DNA of 39,898 nucleotides from a virus (Duplodnaviria > Caudoviricetes): positions 1-39,898 of the IMG/VR virus record IMGVR_UViG_3300027804_000105; one strand, given 5' to 3'. The position numbers and the translations under genes were made by a program. Below, in pieces: positions 1 to 39,898 of the stretch. Position 1 is the stretch's first letter. Every line of letters starts with the position of its first letter. The notes under the pieces were generated by a model, which did not search any database, was not told the origin of the DNA, and worked only from the letters and a program-made list of their open reading frames with translations.

Positions 1-34
1 ACCGCTGCTGATGGACGCTTCCTGTGCCTTCGTG
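1..34. repeat. Terminal overlap, left copy
   Basis: accgctgctgatggacgcttcctgtgccttcgtg matches 39865-39898 at 32/34 positions. Confidence 0.9.
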
Positions 35-5846: not shown

Positions 5847-7924
5847 TGCTGGATTCCTTGGGTTTGCATACCGCCAACCTGCGCCGGAGCCGTGCCTAGT
5901 TTGCCAATTTGGGCATTCTGCGCCTGCTGTATCTGGAACTGATACTGCTCCTGGTATTTGACCAGCCGCTTGTAAAACGCCTCGTCGGCGCTAAGACGCT
6001 GCGACACGTCGGGCTGCTGGACATACTGTTGAATAACTTGCATGGCTATTTGTGCTCCGTTCGGGCGTGCGCCCATTTCCATGCCCGCGTAAATCTTGCT
6101 GAGATCGTCCATCACATCGCGCGTAACCTCTTCCGTAGCGGTCTTGGCGGGGCGAAGGACGGCATCGGCAACCGTCGGGCTAATCATGGAGGCAATGCTG
6201 CCAAGCAACAGGTCCATGTCAATACGCCCGTTAGCGTCCAACTGCCGCAGGCTGACGAACTGCTGGAGAATCTTCTCCATGTTCTCTGGGTCGTTCATCA
6301 GCACGTCGAACTCAATGGCGATGTCGTAGTTCTCGTCGGCACTACCCTTGGTCATGGTCTGACCTTCACCCTTGCCGGTGACGCGGAAGAACACGGACTC
6401 GGGGCCGAACCGCTGATAGCACTTGAACGCGAGCTTGATGACATCGCGAACGTGCTCCAGAAACTTGTTCACGAAGAACTGCTGGCGCTGCGGAGCCAGC
6501 GGATTCTCGTGATCGAGGCCCATCACCTTGTTGGCCTCCATCAGCATCGTATTCTCAATTTCGATGGAGCCCGGATTGAACGGCGGAGTCGGGGCGAAGC
6601 TGATTTCGTTCTGCCGGCGATAGGGAATGATGGAACGCGGACCCCACTCTTTCGGCTCGGAGCCAACCGGGCAAAGCAGCGGAGGCACCGTAGAAAGGCT
6701 GTTCCGGTCAATTCGGCTGTCACGCTCGGCCTTGACCGTCATTTGCAGCCCGCGTAGCCGCTCGGGCACGGAAGCGCCCTCGTAGAGCCGCTGGGACTCT
6801 TCCCCGAGCTTTGTAACCACCACGGGGTAGTCATCAAAGCCGTTCATCAGGGAATGCTTGGCAAACACCTCCCGCCCCTCGTATTCAACCGCCAGCGGGC
6901 AGAAAATGGTTTCGTAGATGCCCTCGGCGCCGTCCTCGTCAATGAGCCGCTGATAGGCGTAAACCACGTCAACCAGCTTGTTTGTCAGTCCGCCCTCACG
7001 AATGAGGTTGCGGTTGTTGATGGCGTCGCCCGTGCGGTAATCCTTGCCGAGCGCCATTTCCAGAACCGCCTCGGCCCACTCTTCGTCCCACCCCAGCGTA
7101 GCCACCGCGTTCTCAATTGCCTGCGGCGTCATCTTGCGCAGCCGGAAGCAATGCGGGGCCGACTGCGGATCGCGCGTGTAATTCGGGAAAATGAGGTCTT
7201 GGTCCGGCGACATGCTCTCCACGCAGGGGCAGTCCACGGAGTTGCGGCTAACCGGAATGCGGGCTTTGCCGGTCTTGCGAAGGTCTTTGAGCGCAACCTT
7301 CATGCGCTTGGCAAACTTCTTGTCGTCAATCTTGCCGAAGAACTGGCTGAAGATGGCGAGGATTTCCTCCTCCTTGTCCTTCTCCATGATGGCGCGGGCA
7401 AGGTCGGGGCTGGCAGCCGCAATTTGCTCCAGCGTCACGTCTTGCAAGTAGGTGCGCTTCTCTTGAAGCCATCCCACATGCGTAATCATGATGCCCTTGG
7501 TGAGAAGGTCGTTTGCACCAAGCTCCATCTGCCGGCGGAACTCGGGGATGTAACTCGCCACCATCCACCGCAGAAACGCCGACACCGTAGCCGAACGCTC
7601 AATGTCGTCAAAGCCTACCGGATTCGCCCGAATGTTCGCCCGCTGGAGGGCGTTCATAAACAGGGCGATGTAGGTGTTAATCGCGTTATCCGAAAGGAAA
7701 ACCTCCGTATCCGACGCATCCGTCCACGGGAAGGCATCGGCACCTTTCTTGCGCAAGTCCTCCGACTTGCCGGCCCAAATGTTGTGTCGGGTGTCGAAGC
7801 TGGTCTTGGCTGCCTGCTGATACGTCGCAAGCCCCGTTACCGTGTCGTCATACGCCTTCTTCAAAAGCGCAACGCTCGGCGTTTCGCTCGTGTAAAGAAG
7901 TTCCACGTCGTTCTTGTCGTCCAT
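5843..7924 (-). CDS. Portal protein
   Basis: 693 aa, downstream of TerL and upstream of scaffold, Q-rich C-terminus as in P22-like portals. Confidence 0.85.
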   Translation of the reverse strand: MDDKNDVELLYTSETPSVALLKKAYDDTVTGLATYQQAAKTSFDTRHNIWAGKSEDLRKKGADAFPWTDASDTEVFLSDNAINTYIALFMNALQRANIRANPVGFDDIERSATVSAFLRWMVASYIPEFRRQMELGANDLLTKGIMITHVGWLQEKRTYLQDVTLEQIAAASPDLARAIMEKDKEEEILAIFSQFFGKIDDKKFAKRMKVALKDLRKTGKARIPVSRNSVDCPCVESMSPDQDLIFPNYTRDPQSAPHCFRLRKMTPQAIENAVATLGWDEEWAEAVLEMALGKDYRTGDAINNRNLIREGGLTNKLVDVVYAYQRLIDEDGAEGIYETIFCPLAVEYEGREVFAKHSLMNGFDDYPVVVTKLGEESQRLYEGASVPERLRGLQMTVKAERDSRIDRNSLSTVPPLLCPVGSEPKEWGPRSIIPYRRQNEISFAPTPPFNPGSIEIENTMLMEANKVMGLDHENPLAPQRQQFFVNKFLEHVRDVIKLAFKCYQRFGPESVFFRVTGKGEGQTMTKGSADENYDIAIEFDVLMNDPENMEKILQQFVSLRQLDANGRIDMDLLLGSIASMISPTVADAVLRPAKTATEEVTRDVMDDLSKIYAGMEMGARPNGAQIAMQVIQQYVQQPDVSQRLSADEAFYKRLVKYQEQYQFQIQQAQNAQIGKLGTAPAQVGGMQTQGIQQ

Positions 7925-11825: not shown

Positions 11826-11993
11826 CTACCTAGGGAAACACACTCATGGCGAACTACGGAGTGGCAATTACCTAGGCAAAACACCCTAGGTATCCCTACT
11901 CAGTGGAATCTACCCAGGGTAAACTCCCTAAGTATGGCTACCTAGTGGAACATACCTAGTGTAAACACCCTAGGTAGTAGCACCTAGGGCTGG
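11826..11993. repeat. 12 x 14-bp degenerate tandem array, consensus about CTACCTAGKGNAAN
   Basis: CCTAG at 11829, 11871, 11885, 11941, 11955, 11969 and 11983, with variants at 11843, 11857, 11899, 11913 and 11927, all in an exact 14-bp register. Confidence 0.88.
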
Positions 11994-15545: not shown

Positions 15546-15800
15546 ATGAGTAAGACGTGCCCAACCTGCGGGCAGTTGATGCCCGGGCTTCCTTCGGCCC
15601 GCAGGGGACGCCCGCCGGTTCGCCATCCGGCTTGCGCCCGTGCCTTTGAAAACCAACGCGAGGCCGAGCGTATGCGTCGCAACCGTTCGGAAGTGAATAC
15701 GAGACGCGAAAGGCTTGACCTTTGGCATCAAATCCGGTCTTTTCTTTATCAGCCAACGGCAAGTCCGCTTGAGCTTTTGATGCTTTCGGAAGAGGAATGA
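15546..15800 (+). CDS. Small Zn-ribbon protein
   Basis: Start MSKTCPTCGQ after GGAGG; RRGRPP motif and HPAC. Confidence 0.6.
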   Translation: MSKTCPTCGQLMPGLPSARRGRPPVRHPACARAFENQREAERMRRNRSEVNTRRERLDLWHQIRSFLYQPTASPLELLMLSEEE

Positions 15801-15826
15801 AATGCAAGCCGCAGCTCAAACTACCT

Positions 15827-16096
15827 ATGAAAACACAGGAAACGAAACCGGAAATGACGGCTCCATTGGCTCTGGCGCCTTGTTCGGCCGCAGCAGCAAC
15901 AATGTTCGGCCGCACGATCTTGGTTGGAGACTACGTGCATGTGCGATTCCCGTGGGGCCGTTTTTACGGAGAAATGGAGGGCACCGTGCTGGAGCTAAAA
16001 CGGTTACGGTGCGGCAAGCACGAGGGGCGCCTTCCGTGCGGTTTGTGGTTTCAAGAATCAGATGAGCTTTTGAATCACAAGCCGAACTCCAAATGA
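15827..16096 (+). CDS. Cassette protein (SH3/KOW-like beta protein)
   Basis: Starts MKTQETKPEM upstream of half site A; ends ...KPNSK* across attC B. Confidence 0.65.
   Translation: MKTQETKPEMTAPLALAPCSAAAATMFGRTILVGDYVHVRFPWGRFYGEMEGTVLELKRLRCGKHEGRLPCGLWFQESDELLNHKPNSK
15866..15888 (-). repeat. attC half site A (R''/L'' arm only)
   Basis: TTGGCTCTGGCGCCTTGTTCGGC; no partner arm found upstream. Confidence 0.7.
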
Positions 16097-16172
16097 TGAA
16101 CCACGCCCAACCAACGCGGCTACGCTTCGCCCCGCCGGCTACGTGGGCGTTGGTTCTGGCGACTTGTTAGTC
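16081..16172 (-). repeat. attC site B
   Basis: GCCGAAC...GAACCACGCCCA / TGGGCGTTGGTTC (one extra T)...GTTAGTC. Confidence 0.85.
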
Positions 16173-16185
16173 ATTCTTCCGAACG

Positions 16186-16317
16186 ATGAAAAAAGCAAAA
16201 AACATGGATGAGGCATGGAAAATCCAAGAAACCTACGAAGGCAAGCCGCACGGCTGGGTGCAGTGGAATGGGACGGTGCTACGCCGAGGAAAAAGACTCT
16301 ATGAAACCAACCGATGA
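16186..16317 (+). pseudogene. Probably truncated cassette gene
   Basis: MKKAKNMDEAWKIQETYEGKPHGWVQWNGT... stops after 43 aa where the left arm of attC C is missing. Confidence 0.45.
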
Positions 16318-16660
16318 AAATAGCGCGGCGGCACAGGCCGTTGCCACTGGGGACTTGTTCTGCGCTTCGCTCGAATGGCACAAGGGGCCGGCCGAGGGCG
16401 GACAGGGCTCCGCAGGAAAGAACGATGACGGAGTTCCGCAGTGGTGGGACGGCGACCGCCTGCTCATCATCGTGGAGACCTGTGCCGGGCGTGAGATGGC
16501 CGTCGTGGACATCAGAGCGGACCAAGAATACTTCGACGTGCGCGATGCCAGCACTGGCGACACCTATGATGCGTGGGAGCCGGAATGCTGGTCGTGGTGG
16601 GCAAAACTCACAAAGCACAATCTTCCGCAGAACGTCAAAGATGAGCCACGCCGCAAATGA
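16301..16660 (+). CDS. Cassette protein, hypothetical
   Basis: Start MKPTDENS; ends ...PQNVKDEPRRK* inside attC D. Confidence 0.7.
   Translation: MKPTDENSAAAQAVATGDLFCASLEWHKGPAEGGQGSAGKNDDGVPQWWDGDRLLIIVETCAGREMAVVDIRADQEYFDVRDASTGDTYDAWEPECWSWWAKLTKHNLPQNVKDEPRRK
16338..16363 (-). repeat. attC half site C (R''/L'' arm only)
   Basis: CCGTTGCCACTGGGGACTTGTTCTGC; its core GTTCTGC is complementary to GCAGAAC at 16627. Confidence 0.7.
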
Positions 16661-16715
16661 GTAACGACACCACCAACCAGCAACCGTCGGCTATGGCTCT
16701 GGCGCCTTGTTCGGC
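16627..16715 (-). repeat. attC site D
   Basis: GCAGAACGTCAAAGATGAGCCA...TGGCTCTGGCGCCTTGTTCGGC. Confidence 0.85.
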
Positions 16716-16721
16716 ATTCTT

Positions 16722-16964
16722 ATGGGCAAAAGACTACCAGTAAACGCGCGCTTTATCGAGCAACCAGCCGAGCTAGTGCTGTGCCTTTCATGCGCGTGGC
16801 AAGGCGATTGGAACTCCCTCAAAACCCAACCATCGCGCCGTGCGCACGCAACCGACGGCCGCGCTAAGTGCCCCCGTTGCAAAACGCCGGGACACTTCAA
16901 AAGGATTGGGCCGAACGGTCGGAGTGAGCCAACGCCGAGGACAGAGCCATTACTTCACCCCTGA
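16722..16964 (+). CDS. Cassette protein, Zn finger (CLSC...CPRC)
   Basis: ATG at 16722; two CxxC pairs; ends ...GPNGRSEPTPRTEPLLHP* inside attC E. Confidence 0.65.
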   Translation: MGKRLPVNARFIEQPAELVLCLSCAWQGDWNSLKTQPSRRAHATDGRAKCPRCKTPGHFKRIGPNGRSEPTPRTEPLLHP

Positions 16965-16998
16965 GACTGTCGGCGTTGGCTCTAATCCGTGGTTGGCC
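16910..16998 (-). repeat. attC site E
   Basis: GCCGAAC...GAGCCAACGCCGA / TCGGCGTTGGCTC...GTTGGCC. Confidence 0.85.
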
Positions 16999-17038
16999 GG
17001 CCGTGGAATTGGTGCCCGAAAATATAATCGAAACACGC

Positions 17039-17066
17039 TTGACGGACTAGGCGCAATGCCTAGTGT
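17039..17066 (+). promoter_or_regulatory. Cassette-internal promoter with overlapping palindromic operator
   Basis: TTGACG-16 nt-TAGTGT; inverted repeat ACTAGGC-N5-GCCTAGT at 17046-17064. Confidence 0.6.
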
Positions 17067-17108
17067 GAGTGTGTCGGAGGCAATGACGCCCGAGACACCT
17101 AAACCAAA

Positions 17109-17300
17109 ATGAAAAACGAAATGATCAAAGCGAAGAGCCTCGAAGCCGCCAAAGCCAACGCCCCCGAGGGAACGCGCTTCGTGCATACCGCCTCGGTGAT
17201 GGATGATTGCGGAACGGGCGGCTTCTGCGGCTACTACTTCACCCCCGAGCAGGAGCGCGAATACAACGACGGAATGGCCCGCATGGCGGAGATGGGATGA
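17109..17300 (+). CDS. Cassette protein, hypothetical
   Basis: 63 aa, ATGA-coupled to the HTH gene. Confidence 0.6.
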   Translation: MKNEMIKAKSLEAAKANAPEGTRFVHTASVMDDCGTGGFCGYYFTPEQEREYNDGMARMAEMG

Positions 17301-17491
17301 GCTCCGACGCCTACAAAGCCGAGCGCGAACGGCGCGGCACGCAAGCGAGCGTTGCCGCGCTCTTGCGCGTCGATCCGCAAACAATCTCCCGCCGCGAGCG
17401 CGGGGAAATCCCCATCACCCACGAAGCCGGGCTTGCTCTTCTTTCGCTCCCGAAGAAACGCAAGCGCCCGCTCAGGCCGGCCAACGTCTAA
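17297..17491 (+). CDS. XRE/Cro-type HTH DNA-binding protein
   Basis: GTQASVAALLRVDPQTISRRERGEIPI matches the HTH_XRE pattern; ends ...PANV* in attC F. Confidence 0.85.
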   Translation: MSSDAYKAERERRGTQASVAALLRVDPQTISRRERGEIPITHEAGLALLSLPKKRKRPLRPANV

Positions 17492-17608
17492 TATGAGCCA
17501 CGCACCCGAATACAATTGCCCGCCCGTGTGCGGGGAATGCCGCCGAGCGCATCGCGGGCCATGCCAGCCAGACCAGCCCGGTGCGTTGGCTCTGGGGACT
17601 GGTTGGAC
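17479..17608 (-). repeat. attC site F
   Basis: GGCCAAC...GAGCCACGCACC / GGTGCGTTGGCTC (extra T)...GTTGGAC. Confidence 0.85.
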
Positions 17609-17795
17609 TGCGCCGTCCGCCATACCCCCTGACGTGGCCCGTAAGATCATTGCGGCCCGTGATGCTATCGCCAACGAAGACACGTCCGAAGCGTGGCATC
17701 AGCTCTATTCCATCGCCGATCCATCGTTTGAGAGCGTGACCCCGTGGGCGATTCTCGAAGCGAAGTCCAACGTCAAAGATGAGCCACGCCCCTAA
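17493..17795 (+). CDS. Cassette protein, hypothetical
   Basis: ATG lies in the attC F arm (MSHAPEYNC...); ends ...KSNVKDEPRP* in attC G. Confidence 0.65.
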   Translation: MSHAPEYNCPPVCGECRRAHRGPCQPDQPGALALGTGWTAPSAIPPDVARKIIAARDAIANEDTSEAWHQLYSIADPSFESVTPWAILEAKSNVKDEPRP

Positions 17796-17868
17796 AATGG
17801 ACACGAATACCACTGACTCTCCGAAAACTCAGGGCAACCCTAGCGTTGGCTCTGGCGCCTTGTTCGGC
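17765..17868 (-). repeat. attC site G
   Basis: GTCCAACGTCAAAGATGAGCCACGC...GCGTTGGCTCTGGCGCCTTGTTCGGC. Confidence 0.85.
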
Positions 17869-18133
17869 GGCTTGGATGCCTCGTCGGCCTCTGTGGCGGC
17901 GTATGCCGTGACGGTGCGTGGCGCTGCTCAACCTGCGGAAAAACTCTCAATTACCATGACGACAAACCCTGACGGGAAACCCTATATCCACAACGCCGAG
18001 CAATCGGAGGCCGCGAAGTCATCGTCGCGCTTTCGCTGGAAAAGCGCGGCCTTGGCCGGTTCGTCTCTGAGCGCGCCGAGTATCGCCTCCCCGGCGACCG
18101 CCGCATCGTCCACCATGGTGGACACTTCTACAC

Positions 18134-18355
18134 ATGAGAGCATACCACACCACAGAAAGCCTCGGCATCAAAGCCCTTGAGCGCCCCGCCTATGAGCGCG
18201 GCGACTTCCCGCGCTACCTTGTCACTGTGGACGGCAAGACCGAGACCGTCAAAACGCCCCGCGCCCTTCAAAAGCTACTAGGCTCGATCTACTCCGAACG
18301 ACCGGAGGTGTTCGTGAACGCTGGCAACGGAATCAGCATAAACTTTGACCAATGA
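18134..18355 (+). CDS. Hypothetical protein
   Basis: 73 aa, ATGA-coupled to the next gene. Confidence 0.6.
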   Translation: MRAYHTTESLGIKALERPAYERGDFPRYLVTVDGKTETVKTPRALQKLLGSIYSERPEVFVNAGNGISINFDQ

Positions 18356-18639
18356 CCAACGCCGACCTCGAAACCATACGCCGCGCCATCTCCGAGGTGT
18401 GCGCGGCCTACGATGAACCGGACAGCCCCGAGGCTCTATCCTGCGCGTTCTATCAACTGCGCCGTGTGCGCGACTACGTGCTCCCGCGCTGCGCTCCGAC
18501 CGGGCGCAAAGGCGGGCTGTCCAAGTCGCCCGCGTTGCAGGCTGCGCGGCGTGCCAATGGTGCGAAATCCAAAGGACGCCCCCGCAAGCCGGTTGACGCG
18601 GCACGCAATGGCCCTAGGATCGCGTTTAGACCAATTTGA
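18352..18639 (+). CDS. Basic putative DNA-binding protein
   Basis: C-terminal GRKGG..KS....AARRANG....GRPRK motif, frequent in phage proteins. Confidence 0.6.
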   Translation: MTNADLETIRRAISEVCAAYDEPDSPEALSCAFYQLRRVRDYVLPRCAPTGRKGGLSKSPALQAARRANGAKSKGRPRKPVDAARNGPRIAFRPI

Positions 18640-18823
18640 GGTGGTCGTTGATGGGAAGACAGGGGTTGCTCGTGGACCCCGTAGAATTGGACGGCATTTG
18701 CGTCCCGATTGGTCTTCGGGGTGGGCTTCGGAGTAGGAGGCTGGCTCAAAGTGGCTAGAATTTGAAGGAAAGTGCCATTTTGGGCTTGCAAACATGGGTG
18801 ATAGTATTCATTCCTTCAATCAA

Positions 18824-18926
18824 GCGGTATCGGAGCCGCGCAACAACCCATTTCGGTAGGCTTAATTGCCCCGACCGATGGCCCAGTGGCGTGAAACTCC
18901 GATCTCCCCACTGGGCCTTTTCTTTT
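18824..18926 (+). ncRNA. Candidate three-hairpin regulatory RNA ending in a terminator
   Basis: Three stems; ATCGGAG (18829-18835) is complementary to CTCCGAT (18897-18903) in the loop of the last stem GGCCCAGTGG/CCACTGGGCC, followed by a T-tract. Confidence 0.5.
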
Positions 18927-19262
18927 GGCCCACGCAGAACCCAAGGCTGCGTTAAGCTACAGAGCACTTGGGGGCTTTAAGCGGCTTAACAGTCAGCAGA
19001 GCTAGATTGAACCACAAATCCTAGAGTCCCTTTCACGGAGTTTCAGGCGTCTAGGTCAGGATACGAGGCGACAGCAGACGGCATACAGCGACGGGTTCAA
19101 TCGAAAGCAAGGAGAGGTCCTCTTTGCGAATCAGCTCTCGGCAAATCGAAGTTTTCCTTAGCTTTCCGGCTCAGGAAACTCCGCTATGCACCGGCACCAG
19201 CGACGGTAAGGCGGAGGGAGTGATAGGGAGTGTTAATAAATCAATGTTAAAGGCGAACAACT

Positions 19263-19829
19263 ATGAGTAGAATGAGCGAATCGGAGGCTTACAAGTTAGC
19301 CAAGGAGCTTTTTAGCTACGATCCCGAAACTGGGATTATTACTCGCATTGCAGCTCCCGTAAAGAGCAACGGCAGTAGGGATAACCGAGGGGTTGGCAAG
19401 CCAACTGGATCGCTCAGTTCGCAAGGGTATCTACAGACCTGCATTTTTAGAAAAAGGTTTTCCAACCACCGGCTCGCATGGTTGCTACAAACCGGTGCGT
19501 GGCCTAAACAAGAAATTGATCATATCAACGGGGTCAAGACCGACAACCGTTGGTGCAATCTTCGGGACGTAAGTCGGATTGAAAACATGGCCAATCGGCA
19601 TAAGAAATGGGGAAAGAATAAGGGCCTTCCCATTGGGATTACTGAACAAGTCCATAAGGGTGGGTATCGTTATTTTCTGGTGACTCATGCTCGAAACCAC
19701 GTTTGTAGGGCATCTACTCGCTCTACCCTTGACGAAGCAATAGAACTGCTGCAAGCATTCCGCGACGAACTCAGATCACTTTCTGCCACAACGGCGGATT
19801 ATCAAAACAACCAACAAGTCAGCAACTAA
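19263..19829 (+). CDS. HNH (homing-type) endonuclease
   Basis: YDPETG, HRLAW and EIDHINGVKTDNRWCNLR motifs; lower GC. Confidence 0.9.
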   Translation: MSRMSESEAYKLAKELFSYDPETGIITRIAAPVKSNGSRDNRGVGKPTGSLSSQGYLQTCIFRKRFSNHRLAWLLQTGAWPKQEIDHINGVKTDNRWCNLRDVSRIENMANRHKKWGKNKGLPIGITEQVHKGGYRYFLVTHARNHVCRASTRSTLDEAIELLQAFRDELRSLSATTADYQNNQQVSN

Positions 19830-19841
19830 CCAATACCAACT

Positions 19842-20426
19842 ATGTGTTCACTCATTTTGACCGAAACCAAGAAGAAGTCCGATCCTACGCCCAGGGGCCT
19901 GCATCAAGTGGTCTGCTACGGCGTCATTGACATCGGCACGCAGAAGTCGGCCAATCCGGCCCATCCCGACAAGCGGAAGGTGCTTCTGCTGTTCGAGCTG
20001 CCCCACGAAACCAAGGTGTTTGACGGCAAAGAGGAGCGTCGGGTTATGTCCCGCTCGCTGGCAATTTCAATGAACGAAAAGGCCACCCTGTTCAAGTTCC
20101 TGTCCGGTTGGCTGGGGGAGAAGCCCAAGACCGGCTTTGACCTCCGCAGCCTGATTGGGAAGAACGGACAGGCCAACGTGGTTCATAGCCCCAGCAAGTC
20201 CGACCCCAGCACCATCTACGCCAACCTGGACTCGGTGGTTGCGCTTGCCAAGGGTATGCAGGCCGTTGCGCCCAGCCGCGAAACCATCACCTTCACCATC
20301 CCGCCCGGCGGCCCCATCGACATCCCGAGCTACATGCCTGAGTGGATTGCCGATAAGATTCAGGAAAGCGCCGAGTTCAAGGCGCGGGTTGGGGCGGCGG
20401 CGGCGGTGAAGATGGGCGGGGAATAA
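19842..20426 (+). CDS. Phage replication/SSB-like protein (resembles NGO0469 family)
   Basis: H..VCYGVIDIGTQ, FELP, SMNEKATL and MPEWIADKI.ES.E motifs. Confidence 0.6.
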   Translation: MCSLILTETKKKSDPTPRGLHQVVCYGVIDIGTQKSANPAHPDKRKVLLLFELPHETKVFDGKEERRVMSRSLAISMNEKATLFKFLSGWLGEKPKTGFDLRSLIGKNGQANVVHSPSKSDPSTIYANLDSVVALAKGMQAVAPSRETITFTIPPGGPIDIPSYMPEWIADKIQESAEFKARVGAAAAVKMGGE

Positions 20427-20641
20427 AAGCGAACACTGACAGTTGAGGGGTGTCCCCTTCAAAAGCACAACACGGGGTCCGGGTTGAAGTCCCGGCAGGC
20501 GCCCAGCGCCGAGCTAATGCAGCACCCCGTTTCAATTTTGACATTTCCCTCCCGGCCGAAGCCTTACGCTTGACGTAGGATAGGAGACCGGCTCCGTAGG
20601 CACGGGCGGGACTAAACCAGCAAACACAGAAAGACAAACCT

Positions 20642-20953
20642 ATGATAAGCAACACGGCGGCAAAATGCCTCAACGAATCCCCGCATGAATCATTCATGCG
20701 CTGGTTCGAGACCAAAATGACCGAGCTTGAGAAGAACAACTTCTTGGTTATGCCCAAGCAAAAAACGTCTCAAGCGGTGGGCTTTGCGAAAACGGAAAGG
20801 CCGCGCACGCCGGCTACGATGGCAAAACTCGCCAAGGCCGAAGAGATTGTTGCGGCCAACCCCAACATCAGCCGCAAACGGCTTAGTAAGCTCACGGGGG
20901 TATGCGACAAGGTTCTCCGTGCCAAGTTCGGTAAAGCCGCCTATTTCCGATGA
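20642..20953 (+). CDS. Putative DNA-binding protein (C-terminal HTH)
   Basis: NPNISRKRLSKLTGVCDKVLR. Confidence 0.55.
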   Translation: MISNTAAKCLNESPHESFMRWFETKMTELEKNNFLVMPKQKTSQAVGFAKTERPRTPATMAKLAKAEEIVAANPNISRKRLSKLTGVCDKVLRAKFGKAAYFR

Positions 20954-21135
20954 ACGAGTATCTCAACGAATCTATCCGGCTGCGTAGCGAGCTGATCGCC
21001 AGCAATGCCCTTCTGCGCGACGCCGAGGCAATCATTGCCGACTTCATGCGCTATTTTCCCGGCCCCGAGTGCCAAGAGCAGGAATCGGTTTGCGACGATG
21101 CCAGGGCTTTCCTGAAGGCTCTCAATGAACGCTGA
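20950..21135 (+). CDS. Hypothetical protein
   Basis: 61 aa, ATGA-coupled. Confidence 0.55.
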   Translation: MNEYLNESIRLRSELIASNALLRDAEAIIADFMRYFPGPECQEQESVCDDARAFLKALNER

Positions 21136-21412
21136 AACAAACAAAGGTGCTTGGACGAAATGGTCCGACGCCAACCACGCTGCTGTCGAAGCAGCGGAAG
21201 CTCTGGCGCCTTGTTCGGCCCTTCGGTGGGCCGTCTTTCCGTGCGGATGGAAATGGGAAATTGCTAGTCTGACGCGCGAAAACGAAACCCCGGTCGCGCT
21301 TTTTGAGCACAAGCACCACGCAGAATCTTTCTGCCGCGAATGGTGGCCGGCCCTCGGCGAAGTGCGCCCTTTGCCGAACACCAAGAGCAGCCGCGGCACG
21401 GCGCAGCCGTGA
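21125..21412 (+). CDS. Cassette protein, hypothetical
   Basis: Reads through half site H (ALAPCSA); ends ...LPNTKSSRGTAQP* in attC I. Confidence 0.65.
   Translation: MNAETNKGAWTKWSDANHAAVEAAEALAPCSALRWAVFPCGWKWEIASLTRENETPVALFEHKHHAESFCREWWPALGEVRPLPNTKSSRGTAQP
21200..21219 (-). repeat. attC half site H
   Basis: GCTCTGGCGCCTTGTTCGGC, identical to the arms of A, D and G. Confidence 0.7.
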
Positions 21413-21437
21413 CGTTGGCTGTCTCGCTTTGTTAGGT
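21373..21437 (-). repeat. attC site I (65 bp, canonical)
   Basis: Minus strand reads ACCTAACAAAGCGAGACAGCCAACGTCACGGCTGCGCCGTGCCGCGGCTGCTCTTGGTGTTCGGC. Confidence 0.9.
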
Positions 21438-21460
21438 GCCTCTTTCTCCAACTCACGAAA

Positions 21461-21823
21461 ATGAAATTCACAGTCTCAAAACGCTTCTCCTTCGAGGCCG
21501 CTCACTCGCTGCCTCAACTCCCTGTCGGGCACAAGTGCCGCAACGTGCATGGCCACTCCTACGTCGTGGAAATCCACGTCGCCGGCCCGCTCGACTCGCG
21601 CGGCTTCGTGGTGGACTACGCCGATCTATCGCTGGCGATGGCCCCAATTATCGCGCGACTGGATCACCAGAATATCAACGATGTGCTCCCGTGCAGCACC
21701 ACCGCCGAAAACCTCGGCGCGTGGATCATGTCGCAGCTCGACAAACACTCAGGGCTGAAACCGCGCGTCTCGCGTGTGGATGTGTATGAGACGGCGAAAA
21801 CCTGCGTGCGCGTGGAAAGATGA
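21461..21823 (+). CDS. queD: 6-carboxytetrahydropterin synthase
   Basis: FEAAH, C..VHGHSY, LDH..IN, TAEN and YET motifs. Confidence 0.93.
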   Translation: MKFTVSKRFSFEAAHSLPQLPVGHKCRNVHGHSYVVEIHVAGPLDSRGFVVDYADLSLAMAPIIARLDHQNINDVLPCSTTAENLGAWIMSQLDKHSGLKPRVSRVDVYETAKTCVRVER

Positions 21824-22473
21824 TGATTCTCGCCGGACAATCCAATCCGCTCTGGCACTACGCCGCTGGCCGCTGGCCGGGTAAGGTGGGGCTACTGCTT
21901 GGACCTGCCTACTTTCGCAAGCAGGCAATCCGTCCGTGGCTGACCTACGTGCTCGACAACGACGCTTTCTCGGCTTGGAGCAACGGCACGGAATGGAATC
22001 ACGCCGCATGGACTGAGATGCTAAGGCGCGCGATGCTCAACAAGCACAAACCTGCGTGGGTGCTCGTGCCGGACGTTGTGGCGGATAAAGCGGCAACGCT
22101 TGCAAGCTGGGACCGGCACGCTCCCGAGGCCGCGAGCTACGGCTGGCCGCTCGCCTTCGCCGTGCAGGATGGAATGACACCGGACGACGTGCCGGAAAAC
22201 GCACAGGTGATCTTTGTCGGCGGCACAACCGAATGGAAATGGCGCAGCCTGCCGATGTGGTGTGCGAGATTTCGGCGGGTGCATGTGGGGCGCGTCAACA
22301 ACATCGAAAAAGTCTATCACTGCGAAGACATGGGCGTTGAGTCCGTGGACGGCACCGGATGGTTCAAAGACCCAACGCGCGAAGACAAACTTCCCGCCCT
22401 GCTTTCTTGGTTTGAAGGCGAGAGGCGCAACGAAAAACAAATGGCGTTGATTGAGGCACCTAACGTTAAATGA
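21820..22473 (+). CDS. Putative TGT/DpdA-like TIM-barrel protein
   Basis: LDNDAFS, VPDVV, AVQDG, FVGG..WK, HVGRVN and SVDGTG motifs; ATGA-coupled to queD; ends ...APNVK* in attC J. Confidence 0.6.
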   Translation: MMILAGQSNPLWHYAAGRWPGKVGLLLGPAYFRKQAIRPWLTYVLDNDAFSAWSNGTEWNHAAWTEMLRRAMLNKHKPAWVLVPDVVADKAATLASWDRHAPEAASYGWPLAFAVQDGMTPDDVPENAQVIFVGGTTEWKWRSLPMWCARFRRVHVGRVNNIEKVYHCEDMGVESVDGTGWFKDPTREDKLPALLSWFEGERRNEKQMALIEAPNVK

Positions 22474-22585
22474 TGAGCCACGGAGCGGGAAATGAAACAC
22501 CCGCCCGTAGCTCAAACTACCTATGAAAACACAGGAAACGAAACCGGAAATGACCGCTCCGTTGGACTCTGGCGATTTGTTGGGC
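22458..22585 (-). repeat. attC site J
   Basis: ACCTAAC...GAGCCACGGAGCGG / CCGCTCCGTTGGACTC...GTTGGGC. Confidence 0.85.
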
Positions 22586-22879
22586 GCGGCCAAGAATGCA
22601 ATCAAGGGGTGGGCCGAACTCACCGATACGACGCACCCGCGCGCCTTCGCTCGCATGAGCGCCGCGATTGAAAAACTCTGCGATGCAATTGAGGAGCACG
22701 AATCCGCCGAAGCCGGGCGTGTCGTGGACGCCATGACGCCCGAACAGGTGGATGCATACCTCGTGAGCATGGGCGTGAATCTCGACGAGATGCGTGCGCA
22801 CACCGAACAGATGCGGCAAAAACTGACCGCGCGCTTTTCTTCGCCCAACGTCGCGGATGACCGAGCCGCAACCAAGTAG
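22523..22879 (+). CDS. Cassette protein, hypothetical
   Basis: Starts MKTQETKPEM in the attC J loop; ends ...SPNVADDRAATK* in attC K. Confidence 0.7.
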   Translation: MKTQETKPEMTAPLDSGDLLGAAKNAIKGWAELTDTTHPRAFARMSAAIEKLCDAIEEHESAEAGRVVDAMTPEQVDAYLVSMGVNLDEMRAHTEQMRQKLTARFSSPNVADDRAATK

Positions 22880-22933
22880 GCCGCACTTCGCCCTGCGGCG
22901 AACGTGCGGCTTCGGTCTGGACGCTTGTTCGAA
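22843..22933 (-). repeat. attC site K
   Basis: GCCCAAC...GACCGAGCCGCA / TGCGGCTTCGGTC (extra T)...GTTCGAA. Confidence 0.85.
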
Positions 22934-22956
22934 AAGACCGAGCCAATGACTTCCAA

Positions 22957-23247
22957 ATGAAAACCAAAACTCAAATCTGTAAGCTCTGCGAGATATTCGG
23001 CGATGGCCCCTGCTCTCCGAAATGCCTAGAGGCTGCGCAGGAAAAGGTGGCGCGTGCGATCCACGCGGAACACAACGCGCATGAGGGGCTGGAAACTGCG
23101 TGGATCGAGCTACACCATTTCCAGCGGGAGAAATATCGCGGCAAAGCATACGCCGCCCTCGTGGCTCTGGGAGCGCCAAAGAAAAAGGCCACGCCGAGGC
23201 GGTCGAACGTCCCGGATCAGCAACGCGCAGGAGCGAAGGAGAAATAA
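22957..23247 (+). CDS. Cassette protein, Cys-rich N-terminus
   Basis: CKLC...CSPKC; ends ...RSNVPDQQRAGAKEK* in attC L. Confidence 0.65.
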   Translation: MKTKTQICKLCEIFGDGPCSPKCLEAAQEKVARAIHAEHNAHEGLETAWIELHHFQREKYRGKAYAALVALGAPKKKATPRRSNVPDQQRAGAKEK

Positions 23248-23459
23248 ACAATGCCCACGAAAAACACCATAGACGACGCCAGCCATCAAGAATGGTCCAA
23301 AGCCGGACAGATGCCGACCGAGCAACAGCGCCGCGACTGGTATGCAAAATCTGCGAAGATCGAAGGCGACGCCTGCGTGGGCGCTGGACTCCCGAGCGGA
23401 ATCGCGCCGTGCAAACCGCAGGCTCCGTCAGCGCGTTCGCTGTGGCCGGATGGTTCTCT
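23202..23459 (-). repeat. attC site L (very long loop)
   Basis: GTCGAACGTCCCGGATCAGCAACGCGC pairs with GCGCGTTCGCTGTGGCCGGATGGTTCTCT about 200 nt away. Confidence 0.7.
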
Positions 23460-23673
23460 TCCGGTCGTGGAAGCCGAAGCTCTGGAACGCAAATGGTCCG
23501 AAGACGTGCAATGGTGGCGAGACAGAGCGAAGTCCCAAATCGAAAAAGGACACCCACTACTCGCGGAACTATCGTCGCAGTCCGCAGACGTGCTATCGGG
23601 CTGTGCCGCGCAGCTTGGCCGACTGATAGCACAGTCGAAATCGCGCCAGCCGGAAGAGAACAAGGAGGTATGA
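23251..23673 (+). CDS. Cassette protein, hypothetical
   Basis: AAGGAG ribosome-binding site and ATG inside the attC L loop; ends ...PEENKEV*. Confidence 0.7.
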   Translation: MPTKNTIDDASHQEWSKAGQMPTEQQRRDWYAKSAKIEGDACVGAGLPSGIAPCKPQAPSARSLWPDGSLPVVEAEALERKWSEDVQWWRDRAKSQIEKGHPLLAELSSQSADVLSGCAAQLGRLIAQSKSRQPEENKEV

Positions 23674-24508: not shown

Positions 24509-24734
24509 ACGCAAACCCAAGCCAGAAGAAAAGCCGGCGGTTGTGGAACGAGCAAGGCCCGTAAGCGGACTGCCGCTGGACTTTAGCCGCTGCTGGAACG
24601 ACGAGTGCGTCAAGGGAAGCACCTGCCTGCGTCGCATTGGAGCTATGGACGTAGGCGCCACCGTTTTCTTCAAGCCCAACCTAAACAAAGATGGTGCCTG
24701 CGAGCATTTCATTCAGGACAAACGAAATAAATGA
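24498..24734 (+). CDS. Small Cys-rich hypothetical protein
   Basis: GTG start; D.SRC....C.....C.R...C pattern; ATGA-coupled to dnaB. Confidence 0.55.
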   Translation: MAAKRKPKPEEKPAVVERARPVSGLPLDFSRCWNDECVKGSTCLRRIGAMDVGATVFFKPNLNKDGACEHFIQDKRNK

Positions 24735-27319
24735 CCAAAGCCAAAACAAACCTCCCCCATTCCGAAGAGGGTGAACGGTCTCTCATAACGCACGTCCTTT
24801 TGGACGGCGCTCCCGCCCTCTGCAAATGCTTTGAGGGCAAAATTACGCCGGAGGTGTTTTACGACCCGGTTTGCCAGAAGGTATGGAAGTCGATTTGCTG
24901 GCTGCACAAGCAAGGACACCCCGTTGAGCTTGCCGTGTTAGCAGAGGAGCTTAAAAAGGCCGGCAAACTGGACGAGCTAGGGGGCTACGAAGCTCTTACC
25001 ACCGTCACAAGCGGTCAGGACATCAGCAAAAACCTCGACTACTGGGTAGCTCGGCTGCGTGAGCTTTACGTCCTCCGCGAGCTTCATGGGGCTGCCACCC
25101 GCACCGCCGAAAAGGCTCTGGCCTACTCCGGCAGCGTCGAAGACTTCGTTTCCGAGACCCACCGCATCCTCTCCATCCAGCACGCCGCCCAAAAGGCCAT
25201 GACGCTGCCCGAGGCGGCTACCTCCGCCCAAGAGCAATGCTTACGAATCCGAGGCTCTGAACCGCTTACGGAAGAGGACAAGGGACTGTCTTGGGGTTGG
25301 AAAGACTGGGACGACCGTTTCGGCTGCGCCAAGGCCGGCGAACTGCTGGTTTTGGGAGCCCGTCCAGGATGCGGAAAGAGCAGCATTGCCCGCCAAGTGG
25401 CATGGGAATGGTCAAAGGGCGGCAAAATCCTCTTATTTTCAAGGGAAATGCCCGTAGAAGGGCTTCCTGTGCTCTTTGCCCAAGCCCTTTCCGGCAAGTC
25501 ATGGAAGGAATACCGCAACCGGAGGCTTCACGACAAGGACATGGACGAGTTTGATGACGCCTTGGCTGCCGTGTCCCGCAACCCAAACATCCTCGCTTTT
25601 GACAAGGACCGGACGCTTTCGCAGCTCATGGCCCGTATTCAGGCTTGCCGTCAACTTATGCCCATCCGTGCTGTTGTCGTGGACTACCTGCAACGCTACG
25701 ATCCGCAGCAAGAGCGCGGGGAAACCCGCGACATTGCCATAGGTCGGTTTAGTATGGCGCTCAAGGATGTTGCCGTTGACCTCAAGATTCCGGTTTTGCT
25801 TCTGGTTCAGGTCAGCCGAGGGGTGGAGAAAGAGGATCGGGAGCCACGTCTTTCCGACATCCGAGAGTGTCTTTCCGTAAAGGACACCTACGTCTTCAAC
25901 AGCCAAGGCATCTGGCGCAACACCGAGGCCCCCATCGCCACCGTCGGCCTGTCTCAAGGCGGCAGCTTGGTTGCCTCCGAAAGCCGTAACGCTCCGCGAG
26001 AGGATGCGCCGGAAATGATTCGGATAACGCTCCAGAGCGGCCGAACCATCACCTGCACGCCCCGCCATGCCATCAAAACCGACAACGGGTGGACGATTGC
26101 CGAAGCCATCACCAAGGAAAGCGCCATTGCCTGCGCCCGCCGCATCCCTGCCCCCCGCAACTGCGAATACTTCCACGTAAGCCGCTGGATGGGGTGGATG
26201 CTTGGCAACGGCTCCGGCGTCGGCAGCCAGTCGCCATCCTTCATCACGTCATGCGAGGTTGTGGCCCAAGAGTTCTGCAAACAGAATAATGCGCTGTTTG
26301 GCTTCTACCCGAAGCCTCATCGCCACAAGTGCCAGAAGGTGTTTCAATACGACATCACGAAGCATACCGTTCGGACGCCCGAGGGCAATCCGGCTACCAA
26401 CTGGATGCGGAAGCATGACATGTGGGGACGCCGCTCATGGGAGAAGCGCATCCCCCAATGGTTTTGCGAGACAGCCGACAACCAGAGCCTTGCCGAGCTT
26501 ATCGCCGGCCTTTGGGAGACGGACGGGCGTGTCATGCTCAAGCCCCGCCCCTCCCTGTCCTACTCCACCACTTCCGAGCACATGGCTTGGCAGGTTGTTT
26601 GGGCGCTCCTTCGCCTCGGCATCTACGCCGCAATTGAGCCCGGATACATGGGAAAGAAGGCAAAGCATCCTTGTTTCAAGGTTTGTATCCGCGTAGCCGA
26701 AGAAATAGCGCGGTTTGCCGCCAAAATCCCGCTCATTGGCCGCAAGGGCGACTTGCTACGTCAGGTTGATTCAACCCGAACCAGCAACATCGCAGGCTCC
26801 CGTTTCAGCGTAGGCGTTGGCAAACTCGTTGAGTCCATCAGGAAACGCTACGGCCTTACCCATGCCCAAATCGGCTATCGCTTTCAGGGCAAGCGTATCT
26901 CCTACGATGATTTGATGCGAGTTTGGGCGAACCTCATGGACAGAGGCATGATGAATGAACACATCCAAAGTCTTGTCGGAGAGGACGTGTTTTGGGACAA
27001 GCCGCGTAAGATTGAGCGCGTGGCCGGCGGACCGGTGTTTGATCGGGTTGTCCCCGAGCACCACAACTTCGTAGCCAACGGGGTCATAGTTCACAACTCG
27101 GGCAACGTGGAGCAGGATGCAGATCGCGTCATATTCATCCACGCACCTACCGCCCTTCCAGACGGCAGCACTCAAGACCTAAACGATGGCGACTTGCGAC
27201 GAATCCACACCAACCTTATCCAAGCCAAAGGCCGTGGAGAGGGAAGAGACAAGTTGACAATGTTCTTCAATCGCCCAATAACCGCTTTTGAAGAGGAACG
27301 AAAGGGATTGAAACTATGA
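24731..27319 (+). CDS. dnaB: Replicative DNA helicase DnaB with intein
   Basis: LPHS.E.E N-domain, GARPGCGKS, VVDYLQ, Q.SR, P.LSDIRE|intein|SGNVEQDAD, K.R. Confidence 0.95.
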   Translation: MTKAKTNLPHSEEGERSLITHVLLDGAPALCKCFEGKITPEVFYDPVCQKVWKSICWLHKQGHPVELAVLAEELKKAGKLDELGGYEALTTVTSGQDISKNLDYWVARLRELYVLRELHGAATRTAEKALAYSGSVEDFVSETHRILSIQHAAQKAMTLPEAATSAQEQCLRIRGSEPLTEEDKGLSWGWKDWDDRFGCAKAGELLVLGARPGCGKSSIARQVAWEWSKGGKILLFSREMPVEGLPVLFAQALSGKSWKEYRNRRLHDKDMDEFDDALAAVSRNPNILAFDKDRTLSQLMARIQACRQLMPIRAVVVDYLQRYDPQQERGETRDIAIGRFSMALKDVAVDLKIPVLLLVQVSRGVEKEDREPRLSDIRECLSVKDTYVFNSQGIWRNTEAPIATVGLSQGGSLVASESRNAPREDAPEMIRITLQSGRTITCTPRHAIKTDNGWTIAEAITKESAIACARRIPAPRNCEYFHVSRWMGWMLGNGSGVGSQSPSFITSCEVVAQEFCKQNNALFGFYPKPHRHKCQKVFQYDITKHTVRTPEGNPATNWMRKHDMWGRRSWEKRIPQWFCETADNQSLAELIAGLWETDGRVMLKPRPSLSYSTTSEHMAWQVVWALLRLGIYAAIEPGYMGKKAKHPCFKVCIRVAEEIARFAAKIPLIGRKGDLLRQVDSTRTSNIAGSRFSVGVGKLVESIRKRYGLTHAQIGYRFQGKRISYDDLMRVWANLMDRGMMNEHIQSLVGEDVFWDKPRKIERVAGGPVFDRVVPEHHNFVANGVIVHNSGNVEQDADRVIFIHAPTALPDGSTQDLNDGDLRRIHTNLIQAKGRGEGRDKLTMFFNRPITAFEEERKGLKL
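25868..27097 (+). mobile_element. Intein (410 aa) with LAGLIDADG homing endonuclease
   Basis: Begins CLSVKDT, block B TCTPRH, LAGLIDADG-like GWMLGNGS and LIAGLWETDG, ends HNFVANGVIVHN followed by Ser. Confidence 0.95.
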
Positions 27320-39864: not shown

Positions 39865-39898
39865 ACCGCTGCTGATGGAGGCTTCCTGTGCCTTGGTG
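39865..39898. repeat. Terminal overlap, right copy
   Basis: accgctgctgatggaggcttcctgtgccttggtg matches 1-34 at 32/34 positions. Confidence 0.9.

What the first reader, a model, noticed from the sequence alone, without database searches (positions are those of the whole stretch)
15813..22585. The same attC leader is reused in front of two unrelated genes
Seen: a 46-bp identical repeat at 15813-15858 and 22509-22554 (AGCTCAAACTACCTATGAAAACACAGGAAACGAAACCGGAAATGAC). Both ORFs begin MKTQETKPEMTAPL. A 1-nt difference (TTGGCTCTGG vs TTGGACTCTGG) then shifts the frame, and similarity ends at about the GTT core. Inference: an existing attC plus start module was grafted onto new coding DNA, with an indel setting the frame. 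This may be a snapshot of cassette genesis, which remains an unexplained process. The repeat could also allow deletion of the intervening 6.7 kb.
Basis: partly seen in the sequence, partly recalled or inferred. Interest (0 to 1): 0.72.

Follow-up and report, generated by a model that had tools for sequence, protein, structure and literature searches.

The report
Start-codon hairpin swapped between phage cassettes
In a freshwater phage, the reading frames of two unrelated small genes begin with the same 14 amino acids inside the same kind of integron DNA hairpin, and one gene likely got this hairpin by exchanging the different one it carries in close relatives, so for that gene this is likely reshuffling of existing cassettes, not the birth of a new one.

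Summary
The 46-bp repeat is real, the two gene bodies are unrelated, and contigs from three studies bridge the 22523 junction. The repeat lies in the loop of a Verrucomicrobiota-type attC that faces backwards to the phage genes, so hairpin and start codon belong to the downstream gene's cassette.

For the 22523 gene the genesis reading fails. The same body (96 of 96 residues) occurs behind a different loop. Of 18 relatives with the extra base, 17 carry that other loop, so the indel predates the graft. The join lies within 6 bp (22560-22565), 5' of the indel, not at the GTT core. A sister phage holds both parent cassettes 1157 bp apart.

Best reading: a loop swap between existing cassettes by short-homology recombination or slippage (0.65). 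The 15827 body has no known parent cassette, so its origin is open.

The scan found backwards, start-bearing phage attC sites before on other DNA (30 notes); my seven paper searches did not find them. New here is a swap mapped to the base. Interest 0.5.

The parts
15813..15858 (+). 46-bp repeat, copy 1: attC loop with start motif ACCTATG (15823-15829) and the first codons of the leader
22509..22554 (+). 46-bp repeat, copy 2: loop of attC J with the same start motif (22519-22525)
15792..15888 (-). site A: attC remnant; loop and R''-side arm present, R'-side (upstream) arm missing; first position of array 1
   Evidence: model built from chromosomal sites: 16.8 bits, E 0.012; sequence
15827..16096 (+). 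ORF A, 89 aa (99 aa from an in-frame ATG at 15797); has a second ATG at 15902, past the GTT; ends in the next site's arm
   Evidence: one distant relative over residues 24-87, E 4e-4
22458..22585 (-). site J: complete attC, inverted relative to the gene; AAC at 22462-22464, GTT at 22579-22581
   Evidence: 49 bits, E 1e-11; 8-bp inner stem
22523..22879 (+). ORF J, 118 aa; no ATG between the hairpin and residue 45, so it would depend on a start in the loop
   Evidence: exact protein on 3 JGI contigs
22560..22565 (+). interval (CGTTGG) in which loop-derived sequence gives way to body-derived sequence
   Evidence: comparison with L033, L034 and L077
22566..22566 (+). extra A in the R''-side arm; inherited marker of the J body lineage; sets the frame
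   Evidence: in L033, L034 and the window only among stored right arms; 18 proteins with LDS
22464..22848 (+). inferred mobile unit, cassette J: from the C of its own AAC to the AA of the next site
   Evidence: flanking tetramers complementary; relatives diverge right after the AAC codon; joints at 22460-22462
16081..17868 (-). rest of array 1: attC sites at 16081-16172, 16627-16715, 16910-16998, 17479-17608, 17765-17868, and an arm-only site with GTT at 16357
21136..23661 (-). array 2: arm-only site 21136-21219, sites 21373-21437, J, 22843-22933, a long site about 23202-23459 (missed by the model) and a lone AAC at 23659 that closes the last cassette

Best explanation
The repeat is the start-codon-bearing loop of a backwards-facing integron attC hairpin, and the 22523 gene likely acquired it by a swap between two already existing cassettes, with the join inside the hairpin's gene-side arm. 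Shown: the hairpins match chromosomal Verrucomicrobiota attC sites on the minus strand while the phage genes run on the plus strand. The J body ends at an AAC where its neighbours change. The same body with the same extra base usually carries another loop. The change of parentage lies within 6 bp just 5' of the extra base. Inferred: a host IntI moves whole units (hairpin, start and gene) at AA|C. A second, rarer process, likely homologous annealing or replication slippage between the near-identical 25-27-bp arms, exchanges loops between cassettes. A crossover 3' of the extra base would put leader and body out of frame, so selection would keep only joins 5' of it. The loop would supply a phage-type translation start, fused in frame in 3 of 5 known copies and as a short upstream ORF in 2.
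For: Orientation: in genome loci 29 of 32 scorable bodies (37 sites) carry the gene on the strand opposite to the phage arrangement. One such array lies beside a divergent integron integrase (368.7 bits, cut-off 265). A model built from 34 of those sites hits 8 window sites at E under 1e-7, all on the minus strand. Cassette status: the tetramers flanking the bodies are complementary in 9 of 10 cassettes (0 of 100,000 permutations) and in 0 of 9 across one hairpin. Unit of movement: 19 J-like proteins that end in the SSPN-type tail change sequence right after that AAC codon, while 17 of 18 with the extra base keep one loop. L033 and L034 share hairpin and body but differ upstream and downstream. 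J's upstream arm follows other sequences in lake contigs (joints into 22460-22462). Swap: P0001 matches the J body at 96 of 96 residues behind another loop. The extra base occurs only in J-lineage arms. Sister phage L033 (95% in flanking genes) holds the leader hairpin and the other-loop J cassette 1157 bp apart in the same array. Other bodies in the window also occur behind different loops (12 same-body, different-loop pairs in three body families). Start signal: ACCTATG precedes 5 ordinary genes I had picked and both leaders, 7 of its 12 occurrences.
Against: No enzyme is identified and no recombination was assayed. A 6-bp interval is short for homologous recombination, and it contains an internal GTT that an integrase might use. 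In lake contigs other arms fork at or just after the outer GTT (16170, 17604, 15887-15889, 17867-17868), as crossover at R'' would give; with 30-nt overlaps I cannot tell which loop lies upstream. The spacer test is weak: the spacer is identical in 6 of 12 same-body pairs, 1 of 7 same-loop pairs and 78 of 2600 unrelated pairs, but the pairs are not independent, 5 of the 6 are one family, and the spacer is coding. The longest-ORF strand call was noisy for phage loci (15 same, 14 ties, 7 opposite; window 3 ties, 1 opposite), so gene strand in the window rests on homologues. L033's leader copy is a variant, so L033 is not the direct parent. Translation from the loop ATG is untested. Chromosomal arrays also put similar loops on unrelated genes (91 pairs), so sharing alone proves no swap.
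Confidence: 0.65

Rival explanations
1. The integrase itself made the swap by an illegitimate cut at the internal GTT (22561-22563) of the gene-side arm.
For: The mapped interval contains GTT, and with the extra base it reads GTTGGAC, a full GTTRRRY (sequence; consensus in PMC5027507). IntI uses GWT sites outside att sites (10.1101/2022.09.11.507474). A review names illegitimate integrase events at internal attC regions as a route to fused cassettes (PMC8876359).
Against: Both partners would have to be cut at that GTT. J's upstream arm has no AAC facing it. The leader copy in L033 joins further upstream, in the inner stem, so the joins are not at one point.
Confidence: 0.15
2. Top-strand attC recombination at R'' (the outer G|TT) exchanges bodies behind a fixed hairpin.
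For: Top-strand recombination exists at about 1,000-10,000-fold lower frequency (PMC5027507). Several arms fork at or just past the GTT in lake contigs. Site A shares its whole arm to GTT with other continuations.
Against: For J it predicts that the arm, including position 22566, comes from the loop donor. None of the 4 other leader copies has the extra base, and the body's relatives do. It may still hold for other cassettes, including A.
Confidence: 0.08
3. Cassette genesis: an attC plus start module grafted onto fresh coding DNA, with an indel made to set the frame.
For: The A body has no known cassette form behind another loop (1 hit, its own sequence, among 5 candidates; one distant relative without the leader). 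Similar attC on unrelated genes is the pattern usually tied to genesis (PMC8352920). J's family has attC-free relatives.
Against: The J body already exists as a cassette at 96 of 96 residues behind another loop, with the indel in place. A's tetramers are complementary like those of any mature cassette.
Confidence: 0.08
4. Ordinary shuffling with canonical orientation: the hairpin belongs to the upstream cassette and bodies change at G|TT.
For: Similarity between the two copies ends near the GTT. Tetramer complementarity fits either orientation.
Against: Sites score on the minus strand, chromosomal genes run the other way, array 2 ends in a lone AAC, and neighbours change at the AAC.
Confidence: 0.02
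5. Assembly chimera at the repeat.
For: Contigs break at the 46-bp repeat, so the pairing of upstream and downstream flanks across it is not bridged. The leader is far deeper than the J body in run X3.
Against: In 3 of 4 runs (three studies, one of which may be the window's source) a contig runs from 22525 across the join into the body without a difference. Both exact proteins are on other contigs. J's two arms pair over 8 inner bases.
Confidence: 0.02

Closest known systems
CALINs in phage genomes (Qi et al. 2023, PMC9892861; read: part 1 of 7 and term passages; supplements not seen)
   Same: Clusters of attC sites with small genes in a phage without an integrase gene; a host integrase is presumed.
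   Different: The passages read describe typical or divergent layouts; 'start codon' does not occur in the main text. Here all sites face backwards, hold gene starts, and exchange loops.
attC sites of sedentary chromosomal integrons (PMC5027507, PMC8352920; read: passages), here those of Verrucomicrobiota
   Same: AAC/GTT triplets, 5- and 6-nt spacers, two extrahelical bases on the R'' arm, variable loop; similar sites on unrelated genes.
   Different: In the chromosomes the gene lies upstream of its attC on the same strand. In the phage it lies on the other strand and starts in the loop. Site J has one further unpaired base and a spacer one base longer.
ORF-11, ORF-17 and ORF-18 in attI1, and short ORFs in attC (review PMC8876359; read: passages and section 17)
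   Same: A recombination site supplies translation signals to cassettes that lack them.
   Different: Those act by coupling from attI or the upstream attC on the sense strand. Here the start is in the cassette's own inverted attC and is fused in frame in 3 of 5 copies.
Fused cassettes formed by slippage or illegitimate recombination (PMC8876359, section 17)
   Same: Rearrangement inside attC sites that is not normal integrase shuffling.
   Different: Fusions lose an attC and keep two coding regions. Here a hybrid attC is rebuilt and the protein's N-terminus is replaced.

Membership tests
integron attC (site J) | Conserved AAC and GTT triplets closing an imperfect hairpin | tested here: met
   AAC 22462-22464, GTT 22579-22581; 49 bits with a model from 34 chromosomal sites
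integron attC (site J) | Extrahelical bases on the R'' arm and asymmetric spacers that define the strand | tested here: met
   Consensus layout; covarying stem (relatedness not controlled); J scores on the minus strand. J has one extra bulge and a longer R'-side spacer.
integron attC (site A) | Both arms present | tested here: not met
   Upstream arm absent; 16.8 bits, E 0.012. A remnant.
integron gene cassette | Core-site bases at the two ends of a cassette are complementary | tested here: met
   9 of 10 perfect, 0 of 100,000 permutations
integron gene cassette | Gene upstream of its attC, same orientation | tested here: not met
   Sites on the minus strand, genes on the plus strand
integron gene cassette | Recombined by IntI at the bottom-strand AAC | not testable with these tools
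   Indirect only: neighbours change at the AAC
complete integron | intI and attI beside the array | tested here: not met
   No PF00589 match in the phage record at E up to 1
CALIN | Two or more attC sites close together without an integrase gene | tested here: met
   8 strong sites in two clusters; no integrase. IntegronFinder and HattCI were not run.
fused cassette | attC partly or wholly lost, two coding regions kept in one cassette | tested here: not met
   J keeps a full attC and one body
ORF-11-like translation enhancer | Start signals in the att site raise translation of the cassette gene | not testable with these tools
   Sequence only: shared start motif; two copies give 28- and 37-aa ORFs ending near the next start

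The most novel reading that the evidence does not exclude
These phages make new cassettes by installing attC arms around and inside their own genes, then swap start-bearing loops among them as a combinatorial library of N-termini. The J lineage would record both steps. Its usual loop encodes the N-terminus of the attC-free phage gene of the same family (14 of the first 18 residues), as if the gene-side arm had been inserted into the coding sequence. The window then shows that loop being replaced. This would give traceable before-and-after pairs for cassette genesis.
Probability: 0.2. Interest if true: 0.82.

Novelty: new variant of a known kind. Interest (0 to 1): 0.5.

Why it matters
It shows that an attC is not always a fixed part of its cassette. 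In these phages the loop, and with it the start codon and N-terminus, can move between cassettes. Shared attC sites on unrelated genes, often read as a sign of cassette genesis, can therefore arise by exchange among existing cassettes. The extra base is a natural marker that tells homology-driven from integrase-driven joins, so the mechanism can be tested with long reads from lake samples. The attC-free relatives of the J family are a concrete lead for the genesis question.

Tried and rejected
An exact 24-nt leader pattern found 0 viral loci. A left-arm-plus-loop pattern found 2 loci from one contig. A degenerate leader pattern found 7 loci, of which the 2 from that contig are the leader; the one other printed (L079) has no hairpin, and I took the remaining four as chance too.

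My first reading, that the hairpin belongs to the upstream cassette, was dropped. Paralogy of the two bodies was rejected. Pfam and PHROGs gave no family for either protein. The blind fold scan was too noisy and missed long sites. The site finder missed several window sites, so I used the covariance model. For that model I left out 3 of 37 genome sites (L054, L066) whose gene strand was not canonical.

No joint for the 6.7-kb deletion was listed, but it would be invisible there, so this is no evidence. RNA run X6 is contigs only and shows no transcription. An Atlas search of the 19842 protein, looked at as a possible annealing protein, gave only an automatic name under the bar, so no recombinase is assigned. 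A look-up of earlier notes by sequence found nothing.

Paper searches listed nothing on inverted start-bearing phage attC sites or loop swaps. Subscription papers are mostly not covered, and the supplements of PMC9892861 were not read.
Full report
SETTING. The window is a whole 39.9-kb virus record with capsid, terminase, DnaB and exonuclease genes, held by freshwater runs. It has no tyrosine recombinase match. Two clusters of small plus-strand genes (about 15.8-18.3 kb and 21.1-23.7 kb) are separated by attC-like hairpins.

OBSERVATION. The 46-bp repeat, both ORF starts and the extra base are as reported. The proteins share only the 14-residue leader. The 22523 junction is bridged without differences by contigs in 3 of 4 runs laid. 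Both exact proteins exist on other contigs. Contigs cannot phase the flanks across the repeat itself.

THE SITES ARE attC, AND INVERTED. A two-arm pattern from the window found 21 genome loci, 20 titled as Verrucomicrobiota or its members (placement of four taxon names recalled). In these loci 29 of 32 scorable bodies carry their gene on the strand opposite to the phage arrangement. In G003 the array lies beside a divergent integron integrase above the family cut-off; 3 of 5 genomes tested had one. A covariance model from 34 of the 37 genome sites finds 8 window sites at E under 1e-7, all on the minus strand, including J (49 bits). A scores 16.8 bits because its upstream arm is gone. Tetramers flanking the bodies are complementary in 9 of 10 cassettes. 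By the established rule that IntI cuts the bottom strand in R' (PMC5027507, passages), the unit on the plus strand is hairpin, start, gene, up to the next AA|C. The data agree. Array 2 ends in a lone AAC. L033 and L034 share hairpin and body with different neighbours. J-like proteins change right after the AAC codon. J's upstream arm follows other sequences in lake contigs. The lead for inversion came from earlier scan notes; the tests are my own. The crude strand call was noisy for phage bodies, so their strand rests on homologues.

THE LOOP IS A START MODULE. ACCTATG precedes both leaders and 5 ordinary phage genes (7 of 12 occurrences). The J body has no ATG until residue 45. The A body has one at 15902. 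The same loop family occurs in L077 twice and in L033: 5 copies, 5 bodies. Three are in-frame fusions (89, 118, 90 aa) and two are short ORFs (28, 37 aa) ending 1 and about 25 nt before the next gene's start. The L033 copy shares a 38-nt exact run with J, so a long exact match is normal for this family. A and J are still closer to each other than to the three other copies. In run X3 the leader continues into at least 4 separate contigs.

HOW J WAS MADE. A search with J gave 31 relatives among 45 candidates, and its cluster gave two more forms. Eighteen proteins carry the LDS reading that marks the extra base: 17 begin with another loop (MNEDQ type) and only J has the leader. P0001 is identical to J over the 96-residue body. 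At DNA level L033 and L034 have the extra base behind the other loop. No other stored right arm has it; the two further string hits are a true GTT core. J's inner stem matches the leader family and pairs with J's own upstream arm. Parentage therefore changes within CGTTGG, 22560-22565, 14-19 nt upstream of the outer GTT. A crossover at R'' would have brought the donor's arm without the extra base. Sister phage L033 is 95% identical on both sides of array 2 and carries the leader hairpin and the other-loop J cassette 1157 bp apart. One deletion or annealing event between the two near-identical arms would give the window's form, though L033's leader is a variant and not the direct parent. Same-body, different-loop pairs also occur for two other window bodies. 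Inference: loops are exchanged by short-homology recombination or slippage, and frame selection keeps joins 5' of the extra base. Against this: no enzyme is identified, the interval contains an internal GTT, other arms fork at the outer GTT in lake contigs, and the spacer test is weak.

SITE A AND THE DELETION. A has lost its upstream arm. A population variant places another loop at the same point (joint 15804 to 17509). A's body has one distant relative without the leader and no parent cassette, so its origin is open. Recombination between the two repeats would remove 6.7 kb, including genes conserved in the sister phage. It was not seen and could not be seen with these contigs.

A LEAD ON GENESIS. 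The J family includes phage genes with no attC nearby (13 loci: L008, L038-L049; one weak hit, E 0.46). Their N-terminus matches the coding part of the usual J loop. Either the arms were installed into a resident gene, or the loop picked up that N-terminus later. I could not separate these.

COMPARISON AND VERDICT. The arrays work like phage CALINs (PMC9892861, part 1 of 7 and passages; supplements not seen), but fail the cassette feature of gene-before-attC orientation. Att-borne translation signals and attC-internal rearrangements have precedents (PMC8876359, passages and section 17). Similar attC on unrelated genes is normal in chromosomal integrons (PMC8352920, passages; 91 such pairs here). 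Seven searches listed no paper on inverted start-bearing sites or loop swaps, while the scan's own notes report the design in at least 29 genomes and swaps at the arm once. Verdict: real, a new variant of a known kind, not a genesis snapshot for J; interest 0.5.

Noticed in passing
L033:2226-2416 against L038-L049 and L008: The usual loop of the J cassette encodes the N-terminus of attC-free phage genes of the same family, with the attC arm lying inside the coding sequence.
   Followed up: partly
window 16186-16363: The gene after site B appears cut short and joined to the loop and arm of a site that has no upstream arm; likely a deletion inside the array.
   Followed up: no
window 15792-15888 and 21136-21219: The first site of each array lacks its upstream arm, which would fix that cassette. 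A variant swaps in another loop at the start of array 1.
   Followed up: partly
window 23202-23459: A very long attC (about 255 nt) whose loop holds a start and over 60 codons of the next gene.
   Followed up: no
window 21461-22473: Two-gene cassette with a QueD-like protein (PF01242) and a PHROG 15826 protein; possibly a DNA-modification module.
   Followed up: no
window 16993-17483: Cassette with a promoter-like TTGACG-N17-TAGTGT and two small genes, seen by eye.
   Followed up: no
L094 near 6592-7200; rows: Some chromosomal Verrucomicrobiota sites have an ATG just upstream of R'' on the canonical strand, which may open a short ORF through the attC.
   Followed up: no
L009 and L019: Records from the viral collection with near-identical attC repeats whose genes mostly look canonical in orientation, perhaps bacterial arrays.
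   Followed up: no
window 24731-27319: DnaB helicase with an intein and LAGLIDADG domain; the sister phage L033 has an HNH-like stretch just upstream of this gene.
   Followed up: no
window 11854-11976: Three 42-bp-spaced repeats in the non-coding region between the two transcription directions.
   Followed up: no
window 1-34 and 39865-39898: The two ends share 34 nt at 94% identity.
   Followed up: no
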